Shown here: in pieces, positions 17,028 through 19,682 of the stretch
How the letters are laid out: the number at the start of each line of letters is the position of its first letter
Numbering within the stretch: position 1 is the first letter of the stretch
Assembly: GCA_965366815.1 (NCBI GenBank)
Contig: CBDUGV010000004.1
Location: 1 to 58,523, forward strand
Direction of reading: 5' to 3'
DNA length: 58,523 bases
DNA from: an uncultured Bdellovibrionales bacterium
Lineage (GTDB): Bacteria > Bdellovibrionota_C > UBA2361 > SZUA-149
Position numbers and translations under genes: made by a program
The notes under the pieces: model-generated
Seen by the model: the letters and a program-made list of their open reading frames with translations, nothing else
The model's database searches: none
Told to the model about the DNA's origin: nothing

Positions 17028-18239
17028 TTACTCAACTATTCGAACTGACCGCTCAAACTGCAACAGGTTCTCGAACGCCAATTTTGAACCAAAAGGCACC
17101 TGCCCGTCCAACTCAGCTACACCCAGTGATATTCTCAGCCATTGACGAGCTTTGTAAAGATCTTCTGGCCCCTTGGCAGCGGCAAACAAGGCAACTGCAG
17201 CATTGTTAAAAATGAGCGCATAAAGATCGGGGTCATCGTGAATTCGCACCAGACCTGCGGCACGCTGAAACCGTTCTAAAGCTGACTTGTATAATTCATC
17301 AGCAACTCCACCCTGATCGATTGCCTCAAGCAAGTCGAACGTGCCAAGTAAATAATGCCCGAGACCAAAGGGGCTATTGGATAACCAAACACCGTTGAGG
17401 GTAGTAATCTGCACTAGTGAATCGCGACGCAATGCAACGGTATGTTCGGCTATATTCTTCGATCCCGGTGCAAGCTCGTCATATTGCCACCGCAAGGACT
17501 GAGCTAACCAAGCTAAGAAATGGAGTCCAAGTTCTCTGGGTTCTCCTGGCACTTTCAAGACATCTGGCAAGTAGCCAATCTTGAATTCCTGGTCCGACCA
17601 GTCAACTGTAACACTAGTCGTTTTTCCTCCGTCATCAGAGCCGAGTTGCAGACTTGGATTAAAGACGACCTCCATCCAATCGGGCTGGCCACGCACTAAA
17701 AACGGACTTTTCGGGTGAAACTCAGACAACCATTCGCCTGCGGTTCCATTCGAACCAACGCCCCGATGAACAAGACGACCATCTAGGAGATGGTAGGTAC
17801 GGGCGATTTGCGTATATCGTTGAAACAAACCGCGCGCCGCTAGGCCTTGCTCGTCAGTCTGGAGCCTTGCAAATATTATTTCTGAAAAGTCCTTCTCTCC
17901 CGGTGTTACTCCCCGCACGTGCAAGGTCGCGCCCATCCAAAGCGCAAGCACCAAAATCATTAGTGGAGCGGGAACTCGAAACGCCGGATCTTTTGGAAGC
18001 CGCCAGAAACCAAGAAACAAAATCGGGAAGGCAAACGCCTGGAGATCTTCACGCAACAAGCCGGCAAATGGAAGAAGCACTAACCCGAGAACAACAAGTA
18101 CTATGAGCGAAAGCCAGGCAAATCGAAGTTGTGTTTTCGCCAAGCGACACAGAGCAACCCACCCCTGTCGCAATCCGCAAGATAGTGCAGAGCCAAGTCT
18201 GCGAAGAACGTAAGCAATTGAGAGATTTTTCGAAAGCAC
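17028..18239 (-). CDS. Hypothetical membrane protein (3 N-terminal TM, soluble domain, TPR-like C-terminus)
   Basis: 403-aa ORF. Hydrophobic segments in the first 105 aa; helical C-terminus with ALERFQRAAG, FNNAAVAL, KARQWLRISL. Confidence 0.65.
   Translation of the reverse strand: MLSKNLSIAYVLRRLGSALSCGLRQGWVALCRLAKTQLRFAWLSLIVLVVLGLVLLPFAGLLREDLQAFAFPILFLGFWRLPKDPAFRVPAPLMILVLALWMGATLHVRGVTPGEKDFSEIIFARLQTDEQGLAARGLFQRYTQIARTYHLLDGRLVHRGVGSNGTAGEWLSEFHPKSPFLVRGQPDWMEVVFNPSLQLGSDDGGKTTSVTVDWSDQEFKIGYLPDVLKVPGEPRELGLHFLAWLAQSLRWQYDELAPGSKNIAEHTVALRRDSLVQITTLNGVWLSNSPFGLGHYLLGTFDLLEAIDQGGVADELYKSALERFQRAAGLVRIHDDPDLYALIFNNAAVALFAAAKGPEDLYKARQWLRISLGVAELDGQVPFGSKLAFENLLQFERSVRIVE
17997..18032 (-). 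repeat. Copy 1 of a 36-nt element encoding AFPILFLGFWRL (inside 17028..18239)
   Basis: Minus strand reads gcc ttc ccg att ttg ttt ctt ggt ttc tgg cgg ctt. Confidence 0.9.
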
Positions 18240-18292
18240 CTAAGCAGCTCAGCTTGTTGGTCTAAACCCTTGTTTCTAAGATTACCTACTTA

Positions 18293-18508
18293 TTAGCTCG
18301 GGGACTGCCGATTGGCAAACATAGCTTCACAAGTTTTCGAAATGTACCGCGTAATCAAGCTATGAACTCGCAGCAGTCGCCAAAATCCCAGAAATAAGAT
18401 AGGAAAGGCGAGGGAAAAACATCTTACGCGGTTAGAAATGGGAGAGAAAATGCGCAGTGTCAGAGCGGCCAGAGCAACGTTCACCGGCGATGCGCCTGAG
18501 CTTGCCAA
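18293..18508 (-). CDS. Possible small ORF carrying copy 2 of the AFPILFLGFWRL peptide
   Basis: 71-aa ORF upstream of and co-directional with 17028..18239. It overlaps the divergent kinase start and has no clear RBS. Confidence 0.3.
   Translation of the reverse strand: MASSGASPVNVALAALTLRIFSPISNRVRCFSLAFPILFLGFWRLLRVHSLITRYISKTCEAMFANRQSPS
18374..18409 (-). repeat. Copy 2 of the 36-nt element encoding AFPILFLGFWRL
   Basis: Minus strand reads gcc ttt cct atc tta ttt ctg gga ttt tgg cga ctg; 9 differences from copy 1, all at third codon positions and all synonymous. Confidence 0.9.
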
Positions 18509-19682
18509 GCTTCTCGCCCAATTGGGGCATAAGATTGGTCACGAAATTGGCAATCCGCTCACCTCGATAATTTCCCTCGCAACGATAATTGAGCGTTTCT
18601 CAGAACCGGGTTCTGACAAAAATCAGCAATACGCTCGCTCAATCATTAGCGAAGCTTGGAAGATCAGCAACCTCGTAGAGAAGTTTGTGCTGCTGTTTTC
18701 AGAACGAGCAGGAAACCAATCAATCTGTGCGCTTGATGAGGCGCTGCGACGGACCCTTAACAAACTCAAATCGCGCGGCGCCTACGATTTGGATGATATC
18801 ATTCTGCGCGTAGAAGATGAGGTCCCGCCCACCGCACATGTAGATCTCGATCAACTCTGCACTATTCTCGCCGAGTTGCTGGCAAATGCTTGTGACGCTA
18901 GTCAGTCTGGCTCGAGCGCGGCAGCATCGAACCCCGACGGAATTGAACTCACAGGTGACCCGATCATTGTCCGCTTGTATTCGGTAGGTAGCTGTAGTTG
19001 TGTCGAAGTAATCAACCCGATAAAGCAGCCGAGCTCGCATGAACTTGCTGAATTATTCCAACCCCTCGTAACCACTTCACCCACGCAAAAAAGTTTGGGA
19101 ATTGGTCTTTCCGTTGTGTCTAAGATCGCAAAGCGTTTTGGCGGCCTGAGTGAAATTGAGGAAGTACTCCTCGACGGAGATCGCCTTCATTTCGTTGCTC
19201 GTTTGGTACTTCCAGCTACTGAAACAGCATCGATCGGTGATTGGGACAGAGCCGAAGCCGACACCCGTCCCGAACTTCCGAAACAAAAGACAGAAGTGGC
19301 CTCGACCGGTATCCCGGAAGAGCTTCGCGTCTTAGTTGTTGAAGATCAACAGATGGTAGCAAGCGCTATTCGTAAAATCCTAGAGTTCGCTTTGAAGGAT
19401 CATTCGAAAGTAACCTGCGATTGTGTCACAGGAGTTGAAGCAGTCGAGATGATTTCAGATGGGGAGGCCTTCGACGTCATTTTATGTGATTTGAATCTCA
19501 ATTCGATGAGCGGCAAGAAGATCTACGAAATACTGTCGCGGGATCAACCCGAGCAACTCTCTCGTTTCGCGTATATGACCGGTGAGCTCCGCCCAGATAT
19601 CGACCAAGAGATTCCGTGCCTCAAGAAGCCGTTCGAGCCGGAAGAATTAATACGAATCGTCTTAGAATTGTTGCAGCGCTAG
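18438..19682 (+). CDS. Sensor-less HisKA-HATPase-REC hybrid with a degenerate ATP-binding domain
   Basis: H box HEIGNPLTSI near residue 36, N box ELLANACDA, G1 replaced by VINPIKQP, G2 SLGIGL, receiver VLVVED/ILCDL/LKKPF. Confidence 0.8.
   Translation: MGEKMRSVRAARATFTGDAPELAKLLAQLGHKIGHEIGNPLTSIISLATIIERFSEPGSDKNQQYARSIISEAWKISNLVEKFVLLFSERAGNQSICALDEALRRTLNKLKSRGAYDLDDIILRVEDEVPPTAHVDLDQLCTILAELLANACDASQSGSSAAASNPDGIELTGDPIIVRLYSVGSCSCVEVINPIKQPSSHELAELFQPLVTTSPTQKSLGIGLSVVSKIAKRFGGLSEIEEVLLDGDRLHFVARLVLPATETASIGDWDRAEADTRPELPKQKTEVASTGIPEELRVLVVEDQQMVASAIRKILEFALKDHSKVTCDCVTGVEAVEMISDGEAFDVILCDLNLNSMSGKKIYEILSRDQPEQLSRFAYMTGELRPDIDQEIPCLKKPFEPEELIRIVLELLQR

What the first reader, a model, noticed from the sequence alone, without database searches (positions are those of the whole stretch)
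17997..18409. Same 12-residue peptide encoded twice, with only synonymous differences
Seen: AFPILFLGFWRL is encoded at 18032..17997 (a TM segment of the 403-aa protein) and again at 18409..18374 (a small upstream ORF on the same strand). The 36-mers differ at 9 positions, all third-codon and all synonymous (9 of 11 degenerate codons), and similarity stops abruptly on both sides. Chance identity is implausible. A decaying duplicate would not avoid non-synonymous changes, so selection on the peptide is implied. Inference: a small decoy or leader peptide mimicking a TM helix of its neighbour, which could compete for a partner or tune translation. Caveats: the shifted plus-strand frame is also conserved (SRQKPRNKIGKA vs SRQNPRNKIGKA, the latter in frame with the kinase at 18438), so the selected strand of copy 2 is ambiguous. 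An assembly or editing artefact cannot be excluded.
Basis: partly seen in the sequence, partly recalled or inferred. Interest (0 to 1): 0.72.

Follow-up and report, generated by a model that had tools for sequence, protein, structure and literature searches.

The report
Relic patch of neighbour gene's helix
A 36-base stretch between two genes of an uncultured marine predator-phylum bacterium spells the same 12 amino acids as a helix of the neighbouring membrane protein; it is most likely a leftover scrap copied from a related species' version of that gene, not a working mini-protein.

Summary
AFPILFLGFWRL is encoded at 18032..17997, inside the 403-aa membrane protein. It is encoded again at 18409..18374, in the 198-nt gap before the divergent hybrid histidine kinase. 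The two 36-mers differ at 9 sites, all third-codon and synonymous. Six independent assemblies carry both copies.

Neutral decay of a copy of copy 1 is rejected (about 4e-8). The codon-phased pattern need not mean selection on copy 2:
- Copy 2 has no counterpart in any of seven relatives.
- The 71-codon frame around it is not called as a gene, and it shares no three 5-residue words with any similar-sized protein among 5.8 billion.
- Copy 1 and copy 2 share no more codons than random synonymous choice would give (3 of 12).
- Copy 2 matches the orthologue of a 61%-identical relative, L001, at 32 of 36 bases and 8 of 12 codons (P about 0.02-0.08).

Best reading (about 0.5): a short templated patch from a diverged homologue. 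The synonymous differences arose while both sequences were working genes. The small decoy or leader peptide remains possible (about 0.1). No RNA data or close relatives were available. The whole-genome tools (genome search, the fetch from genomes) were closed.

The parts
17997..18032 (-). Copy 1: codons 70-81 (AFPILFLGFWRL) of the 403-aa membrane protein, in the helix between TM1 and TM2
   Evidence: The 12-mer is identical in the 61%-identical orthologue P0002 (L001). It matches at 7 of 12 or fewer in the 39 other family representatives aligned.
18374..18409 (-). Copy 2: a 36-nt patch that encodes the same 12 residues on the minus strand. It lies in the intergenic gap, 28 nt upstream of kinase ATG 18438.
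   Evidence: It matches copy 1 at 27/36 and L001 copy 1 at 32/36. Read and contig support.
17028..18239 (-). Gene of the 403-aa membrane-anchored protein. It has no Pfam family. Its family has 136 clusters at 50% identity.
18438..19682 (+). Divergent hybrid histidine kinase / response regulator without a sensor or TM domain. An alternative start at ATG 18450 has GGAGAG upstream.
   Evidence: (P0004 is the 410-aa call)
18240..18437 (.). 198-nt gap between the divergent genes. It is far longer than in the two nearest relatives (29 and 20 nt). No gene is called here.
18293..18508 (-). Mechanical 71-codon ORF that contains copy 2. Its first 59-71 bases run antisense through the kinase start.
   Evidence: The best 19-residue hydropathy window is 1.61.
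18342..18365 (+). ATG in frame with the kinase, followed by TGA at 18363. The frame is then open through copy 2 (SRQNPRNKIGKA) to ATG 18438. It may be an old kinase start, but this is unproven.
   Evidence: alignment to the L006 start, p 0.62, not significant; TGA is a normal stop here
18434..18454 (+). Purine-rich 21-mer at the kinase start. It is 76% identical to the 3' part of copy 2 (18390-18410), which in turn is 76% identical to 18013-18033. Possible extended microhomology.
   Evidence: family D1. In one search, the L001 kinase N-terminus matched copy 2 at 16/20 (p 0.006, uncorrected for 20 tests).

Best explanation
Copy 2 is most likely a non-functional relic. It is a short patch of about 36 nt copied from the coding sequence of a diverged homologue of the 403-aa gene. 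The nearest available relative of the donor is the lineage of contig L001. The patch was inserted into the 5' edge of the divergently transcribed kinase gene.

On this reading, the nine synonymous-only differences from copy 1 did not arise after a duplication. They arose while donor and resident sequences were evolving as working genes in separate lineages, under the same purifying selection that keeps this 12-mer identical between the window and L001.

The likely route (inferred) is a templated microindel. Single-stranded DNA from outside or inside the genome anneals at a microhomology and is built into the nascent strand. The alternative is an aberrant end of a homologous-recombination event with DNA from a relative.

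Shown: the repeat, its codon phase, its absence from relatives, and its greater likeness to L001. Inferred: the donor, the mechanism, and the lack of function.
For: 1. Derived state.
- Seven relatives keep the same divergent gene pair but have no copy of their own motif upstream.
- The two nearest have gaps of 29 nt (L001) and 20 nt (L005), against 198 nt here.
- MAFFT places copy 2 inside a block present only in the window.

2. Saturated synonymous divergence.
- Copy 1 and copy 2 share 3 of 12 codons; 4.5 are expected for independent synonymous choice.
- This equals the window-L001 orthologue comparison (4 of 12).

3. Likeness to another lineage.
- Copy 2 matches L001 copy 1 at 32/36 bases and 8/12 codons. 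All four differences are synonymous.
- P(8 or more shared codons) is 0.023 to 0.078, depending on the codon-usage null.
- In a blastn-short search of the whole gap against all loci and the rest of the window, this is the only significant hit (33 nt, 91%, E 4e-6).

4. The motif is not generally invariant.
- L005 keeps 6 of 12 residues; 39 other family representatives keep 7 of 12 or fewer.
- A donor must therefore come from the window/L001 clade.

5. No paralogue or second carrier is known. Besides the window's own protein, only P0002 has this 12-mer among the proteins searched.

6. No sign of a gene or RNA element at copy 2.

7. Mechanism precedent. SPDIR gives insertion-deletion patches of 3 to about 100 bp. 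They are templated by intra- or extragenomic single strands at microhomologies (bioRxiv 10.1101/2023.11.22.568220, citing Harms et al. 2016).

8. The same pattern was noted elsewhere in this scan.
Against: - The preference for L001 rests on 36 bases and is only modestly significant (P 0.02-0.08).
- No donor identical to copy 2 was found.
- The junctions show no clean microhomology. The purine-rich 21-mers are only a lead: p 0.006 before correction for 20 comparisons.
- The nearest relative with sequence is only 61% identical in protein, so the age of the insertion is unknown.
- A patch with exact codon boundaries that covers exactly the identical 12 residues is a little too neat. This could be an ascertainment effect of a longer, unrecognisable relic.
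- Lack of function is inferred from absence of evidence. No transcript or ribosome data exist for this organism.
Confidence: 0.5

Rival explanations
1. First reader's model. Copy 2 is translated on the minus strand as part of a 63-71-aa small protein or leader peptide upstream of the 403-aa gene. Its hydrophobic helix copies that of the large protein. It is kept by purifying selection, as a decoy, an assembly partner or a translation-coupled sensor.
For: - Nine of nine differences are synonymous in this frame.
- The frame is open for 71 codons and ends 53 nt before the start of the 403-aa gene.
- Residues 28-46 reach a borderline TM hydropathy of 1.61.
- Copy 1 shows that selection can hold this 12-mer fixed over saturating synonymous divergence.
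Against: - The only starts are TTG 18508 and GTG 18484, antisense within the kinase gene, without a good Shine-Dalgarno.
- It was not called on any of three contigs.
- No similar small protein is in the 5.8 billion searched.
- It is absent in all seven relatives, including L001, which has the identical motif in its large protein.
- Copy 2 is nearer to L001 copy 1 than to its own neighbour, which a within-lineage duplicate does not predict.
- The REDLQA and PK flanks, conserved with the motif in the orthologues, are not kept.
- The only SNP inside the ORF (18333, contig L010) is non-synonymous in it.
Confidence: 0.12
2. Copy 2 was copied from the genome's own copy 1, in frame, into the N-terminal tail of the kinase. 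It was then kept by selection on the plus frame (SRQNPRNKIGKA). The third codon positions of the plus frame coincide with those of the minus frame, so the changes look synonymous in both.
For: - The plus frame is in frame with ATG 18438 and with an upstream ATG at 18342, and is open from 18366 to the kinase.
- In the plus frame, eight third-position differences are synonymous (counting GCA/GCG at 18033/18410, just outside the 36-mer) and one changes the residue, K to N.
- Basic N-terminal tails are typical of these kinases.
Against: - TGA at 18363 stops the frame, and TGA is an ordinary stop in this genome (14 of 50 long ORFs).
- There is no canonical start between that TGA and ATG 18438.
- Kinase N-terminal tails vary from 3 to 57 residues and are poorly conserved. 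Keeping 11 of 12 residues through saturated synonymous change is therefore not expected.
- This model does not explain the likeness to L001 copy 1.
Confidence: 0.08
3. Copy 2 is the last recognisable piece of a longer, old duplicate: a lost tandem paralogue or a partial duplication of the 5' part of the 403-aa gene. That duplicate evolved for a long time as coding sequence and was then mostly deleted or eroded.
For: - Weak collinear echoes appear in the flanks.
  - ACATCTT-ACGC against AGATCTTCACGC, 10-12 nt from the core (banded test p 0.03-0.1).
  - CGAGTTC, in frame, after a 15-nt gap.
- Saturated synonymous divergence fits an old split.
Against: - The flanks are not significantly alike in unconstrained tests (p 0.29, 0.61).
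- The family-invariant E, Q and P residues beside the motif are missing.
- No paralogue exists among the proteins searched.
- No relative shows a trace of such a duplicate.
Confidence: 0.12
4. The two 36-mers are a functional nucleic-acid element: a protein-binding direct repeat, or a pairing site between the kinase 5' leader and the 403-aa mRNA.
For: - They are direct repeats 377 nt apart at a divergent promoter region.
- Copy 2 on the plus strand is partly complementary to copy 1 on the minus-strand mRNA (27 Watson-Crick pairs and 3 G-U of 36; by inspection).
Against: - A mismatch at every third base gives no stable duplex and fits no known DNA-binding register.
- No Rfam match, and no structure beyond shuffles (z -1.16 and +0.95).
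- No promoter-like sites.
- Not conserved in relatives.
Confidence: 0.03

Closest known systems
[quoted passage not shown] 2016, as described in bioRxiv 10.1101/2023.11.22.568220)
   Same: - A short patch within the 3 to about 100 bp range is inserted at an ectopic site.
- Its template is recognisable elsewhere and may come from outside the genome.
- There is no mobile-element machinery nearby.
   Different: - The event was not observed, only inferred from a single natural locus.
- Junction microhomologies are not clear.
- The exact donor was not found.
Gene ends duplicated with synonymous-only differences beside inserted DNA
   Same: - The same peptide is encoded twice, and the differences are confined to synonymous sites.
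- The cause is that one copy evolved as a working gene in another lineage.
   Different: - The repeat here is internal to the gene (codons 70-81), not a gene end.
- The 341 nt between the copies are the gene's own conserved N-terminus plus the gap, with no cargo, integrase or hairpin cassette.
Small membrane proteins and leader peptides that modulate sensor kinases or report on membrane insertion (MgrB, SafA; MifM, SecM; from general knowledge)
   Same: - A short hydrophobic ORF sits next to a kinase gene and upstream of a membrane-protein gene.
   Different: - No evidence of translation, no conserved ORF, no homologues.
- Those peptides are not copies of a segment of their target.

Membership tests
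Translated small membrane protein / leader peptide (uORF) | ORF with a credible start codon and ribosome-binding site, recognised as a gene | tested here: not met
   The only in-frame starts are TTG 18508 and GTG 18484, antisense inside the kinase gene, with weak or absent Shine-Dalgarno. No gene is called in the gap on three contigs.
Translated small membrane protein / leader peptide (uORF) | ORF or peptide conserved in related genomes | tested here: not met
   Absent upstream of the homologue in L001-L007. No similar-sized protein sharing three 5-residue words in 5.8 billion. Zero hits to the degenerate motif pattern in JGI metagenome contigs and IMG/VR.
Translated small membrane protein / leader peptide (uORF) | Transcription and translation of the frame | not testable with these tools
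   No RNA run holds the stretch.
Short templated patch (SPDIR-type microindel / illegitimate recombination footprint) | Patch of 3 to about 100 bp whose template can be identified elsewhere | tested here: met
   The 36-nt core matches L001 copy 1 at 32/36 and the window's own copy 1 at 27/36, and the flanks are unrelated. Size range.
Short templated patch (SPDIR-type microindel / illegitimate recombination footprint) | Derived state: site empty in relatives | tested here: inconclusive
   Empty in seven relatives. The nearest is only 61% identical in protein, so no true sister with an empty site was seen.
Short templated patch (SPDIR-type microindel / illegitimate recombination footprint) | Microhomology at the crossover points | tested here: inconclusive
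   Purine-rich 21-mers at 18013, 18390 and 18434 are 76% alike. The L001 kinase N-terminus matches copy 2 at 16/20, p 0.006 uncorrected. No clean junction.
Segmental or tandem duplication pseudogene | Homology continuing into the flanks of the repeat | tested here: not met
   Flank shuffle tests gave p 0.29 and 0.61. The banded collinear test gave at best p 0.03-0.1 on one side.
Integrative element flanked by att-type direct repeats that restore a gene | Foreign cargo (integrase or other genes, or a cassette) between the repeats | tested here: not met
   The 341 nt between the copies are the gene's own N-terminal 69 codons, conserved in relatives, plus 134 nt with no called gene.
Diversity-generating retroelement template/variable repeat pair | Differences confined to adenines of the template | tested here: not met
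   The nine differences include C/T, G/T, T/C, G/A, T/G and T/A. On either strand and in either direction, at most 4 of 9 involve A.
CRISPR spacer | Spacer flanked by direct repeats of an array | tested here: not met
   No repeats flank 18374-18409.

The most novel reading that the evidence does not exclude
Copy 2 is translated from the minus strand as a lineage-specific micro-protein or leader peptide. Its helix is an exact copy of helix 63-80 of the adjacent membrane protein. It is held identical by selection because it docks into, or competes for, the same partner. That partner could be the sensor-less hybrid kinase complex. The peptide would then tune expression or assembly of the membrane protein at the head of the tad locus.
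Probability: 0.1. Interest if true: 0.75.

Novelty: new member of a known kind. Interest (0 to 1): 0.3.

Why it matters
The pattern 'same peptide, only synonymous differences' is usually taken as proof of selection on the second copy. This case shows a cheaper explanation that genome scans must exclude first. The differences can be inherited from a donor gene that evolved under selection in another lineage.

If the reading is right, this is a natural footprint of very short patch transfer between related uncultured marine Bdellovibrionota. Such transfer has been shown at the bench in the Acinetobacter work read here. It landed in the 5' edge of a kinase gene, which now seems to start downstream of the patch.

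If the minority reading is right, it would be a rare example of a micro-protein born as an exact copy of a helix of its neighbour.

Tried and rejected
One search failed because the query was too short. The rest of the genome could therefore not be searched for a paralogue or a second copy.
I could not test whether an L001-like donor lives in the same samples.

Searches that found nothing:
- JGI metagenome contigs: no relatives with the family alignment and no hits with a degenerate pattern for the 12-mer.
- IMG/VR with the same pattern: none.
- The 71-aa ORF: no protein relatives.
- Rfam, promoter and terminator scans: none.
- RNA folds of the gap on either strand are no better than shuffles.
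- No RNA runs.
- No second copy at 80% or more in the four metagenomes.
- PDB fold search of the 403-aa model gave only generic helical-repeat matches (E above 0.01, TM about 0.24).

Ideas considered and rejected:
- Chance.
- Assembly artefact.
- Alternative genetic code reading TGA 18363.
- DGR, CRISPR spacer and att-site duplication (see the membership tests).
- Antisense pairing of the two copies.

Unproven leads:
- ATG 18342 may be the ancestral kinase start. The alignment to L006 ends exactly on both start codons, but p is 0.62.
- The extra sequence may be a 51-nt in-frame insert (18360-18410) between I-K and R-E-K-H-L-T-R of the kinase tail. This rests on a by-eye alignment to L005 and L001; the shared 10-mer is not significant.
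Full report
**What is there.**
- The window comes from an uncultured marine bacterium. Four marine metagenome runs hold it. Earlier notes of this scan place it in Bdellovibrionota.
- On the minus strand, 17028-18239 encodes a 403-aa protein with no Pfam family.
- On the plus strand, 18438-19682 encodes a hybrid histidine kinase with a receiver domain: HisKA, HATPase_c and Response_reg. It has no TM or sensor domain.
- Another gene caller starts the kinase at ATG 18450, which has GGAGAG upstream (P0004).
- The two genes diverge from a 198-nt gap (18240-18437) in which no gene was called on three independent contigs.
- Downstream of the 403-aa gene lie a 189-aa ORF, a CpaE/TadZ-like ATPase, a 61-aa ORF and RcpC. 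This is a tad pilus locus.

- Minus strand 18032..17997 and 18409..18374 both encode AFPILFLGFWRL.
- The 36-mers differ at nine sites, all at codon position 3 and all synonymous.
- It is the only peptide of 10 or more residues that occurs twice in the six-frame translation of the window.
- Nine random differences would fall in one codon phase with P = 7e-6. Nine third-position changes would all be synonymous with P = 0.006.
- Local alignment covers only 18375-18409 against 17998-18032. The flanks are not significantly alike (p 0.29 and 0.61). A banded, collinear test gave p 0.03-0.1 for the right flank only.
- Logan contigs of four runs carry the stretch without a difference, and in two runs one contig spans both copies.
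- Two ENA assemblies agree. The only nearby variants are 17892 and, in contig L010, 18333.
- So it is neither chance, nor an artefact, nor neutral decay of a copy of copy 1.

**What copy 1 is.**
- An AlphaFold2 model built from six family members (mean pLDDT 74) gives helices 7-37, 40-59, 63-80 and 91-107. An alpha/beta part and a helical-repeat C-terminal domain follow.
- No PDB structure matches beyond generic helical repeats.
- The motif is residues 70-81, the C-terminal two thirds of helix 63-80.
- Mean hydropathy of residues 63-81 is 0.64, against 2.8 at best for TM1 and 1.8 at best for TM2. It is a moderately hydrophobic helix in the short loop between two TM helices, not a classic TM segment.
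- The family has 136 clusters at 50% identity in 1.84 billion representatives.
- Across 41 aligned members the pattern is ED.Q...FP......WRLP.
- The exact 12-mer is shared only with P0002 (61% identical overall). All others keep 7 of 12 or fewer.

**Relatives.** Seven loci with the same divergent pair were recovered.

| Locus | Relationship | Gap length |
|---|---|---|
| L001 | P0002, 61% identical to the 403-aa protein | 29 nt |
| L005 | kinase 59% identical | 20 nt |
| L006 | kinase 44% identical | 189 nt |
| L007 | kinase 41% identical | 39-66 nt |
| L002 | 403-aa homologue 35% identical (P0003) | 54 nt |
| L003 | 403-aa homologue 30% identical | 113 nt |
| L004 | 403-aa homologue 33% identical | 117 nt |
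| Window | | 198 nt |

- None encodes a copy of its own version of the motif within 400 nt upstream of the membrane-protein gene, on either strand.
- MAFFT puts copy 2 inside a block present only in the window, directly upstream of the part of the kinase that aligns with L005, L001 and L006.
- The 71-codon frame around copy 2 shares no three 5-residue words with any protein of comparable size among 5.8 billion.
- The degenerate DNA pattern for the 12-mer has no hit in JGI metagenome contigs or IMG/VR.

**Where the codon pattern comes from.**

| Comparison | Bases identical | Codons identical |
|---|---|---|
| Copy 1 vs copy 2 | 27/36 | 3/12 |
| Window copy 1 vs L001 copy 1 | 27/36 | 4/12 |
| Copy 2 vs L001 copy 1 | 32/36 | 8/12 |

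- The expectation for two independent synonymous encodings under the window's codon usage is 4.5 shared codons. Copy 1 and copy 2 are therefore as different as random synonymous choice allows.
- The window and L001 orthologues are equally different, yet selection has kept their peptides identical.
- All four differences between copy 2 and L001 copy 1 are synonymous.
- P(8 or more shared codons) is 0.023 with window usage, 0.027 with mixed usage, and 0.078 with L001 usage for both.
- The gap was searched with blastn-short against all fetched loci and the rest of the window. The only significant hit is this one (33 nt, 91%, E 4e-6).
- A duplicate made inside the window's lineage should not be nearer to another lineage's gene than the window's own gene is.
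- The simplest account is that copy 2 descends from the coding sequence of a diverged homologue close to L001. The synonymous-only differences then accumulated while both sequences were working genes. On this account no selection on copy 2 itself is needed.
- The statistical support is modest because only 36 bases are available.

**How it could have got there (inference).**
- Short-patch double illegitimate recombination inserts patches of 3 to about 100 bp. The template is intra- or extragenomic single-stranded DNA that anneals at microhomologies.
- The 3' part of copy 2 (18390-18410) is 76% identical to a purine-rich 21-mer at the kinase start (18434-18454) and to 18013-18033 in copy 1.
- The orthologous part of the L001 kinase matches copy 2 at 16/20. 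That gives p 0.006 in shuffles, but 20 comparisons were made.
- This may be the extended microhomology that guided the event. It is a lead, not a result.
- The same signature, and the same explanation by foreign homologous DNA, was noted in other genomes of this scan. Those notes agree with my reading but are not independent evidence.

**The plus frame.**
- Third codon positions coincide in the minus frame and the shifted plus frame. The pattern therefore cannot tell the two apart.
- Within the 36-mer, seven of the eight differences that fall in the conserved plus-frame peptide are synonymous and one is K to N. A further synonymous difference (GCA/GCG) lies one base outside.
- The plus frame is in frame with ATG 18438 and with ATG 18342. 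TGA at 18363 interrupts it, and there is no canonical start between that TGA and 18438.
- TGA ends 14 of 50 long ORFs in the window, so the code is standard.
- N-terminal tails of these kinases range from 3 to 57 residues and are poorly conserved. Strict conservation of an inserted 12-mer in that tail is therefore unlikely.
- The idea that 18342 is the old start rests on an alignment that is not significant (p 0.62).

**The small-protein model.**
- For it: nine of nine synonymous changes, an open 71-codon frame ending 53 nt before the 403-aa start, and a borderline hydrophobic stretch (1.61).
- Against it:
  - The only starts lie antisense inside the kinase gene.
  - There is no gene call, no homologue and no counterpart in any relative.
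  - The conserved REDLQA and PK flanks are lost.
  - The single SNP inside the ORF is non-synonymous in it.
  - Copy 2 is closer to L001 than to its own neighbour.
- No transcript data exist, so it is not excluded. I give it about 0.1.

**Verdict.** The sequence feature is real and statistically striking. Its most likely meaning is a mutational footprint: a short patch from a diverged homologue of the neighbouring gene. Confidence is about 0.5. Limits on the analysis:
- The donor comparison rests on one 36-base stretch.
- No close relatives were available.
- L001 could not be used as a query against sequencing runs.

Noticed in passing
window 17028-19682; loci L002-L007: The 403-aa membrane protein (no Pfam family; 136 clusters at 50% identity) is paired divergently with a sensor-less, TM-less hybrid histidine kinase in all seven relatives recovered. 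def and fmt often lie downstream of the kinase. The membrane protein may be the missing sensor of this kinase.
   Followed up: partly
window 18342-18437 (+): An ATG at 18342 is in frame with the kinase and is stopped by TGA at 18363. The frame is open from there to ATG 18438. The kinase may have lost an older start when the extra sequence arrived. The alignment to relatives is not significant (p 0.62).
   Followed up: partly
window 18408-18417 and 18571-18580: A perfect 10-nt inverted repeat (GCGAGGGAAA / TTTCCCTCGC) joins the right edge of copy 2 to codon 45 or so of the kinase. About 0.2 such pairs are expected by chance in 700 nt.
   Followed up: no
window 57461-57487 and 58120-58146 (-): The peptide RFPSNWELS is encoded twice. 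It lies in the two tandem MotB-like paralogues already noted by the scan, so this is an ordinary paralogue repeat.
   Followed up: no
L006 1539-2811 (-): In this relative the homologue of the 403-aa protein is split into 188-aa and 225-aa ORFs. This is either a frameshift or a low-coverage assembly error (the contig is labelled 2x).
   Followed up: no
window 17892, 18333: Strain variants. 17892 is T, against C in the window, in all four runs and in three other contigs. 18333 differs only in contig L010. Diversity is about 0.1% over 6-7 kb.
   Followed up: yes
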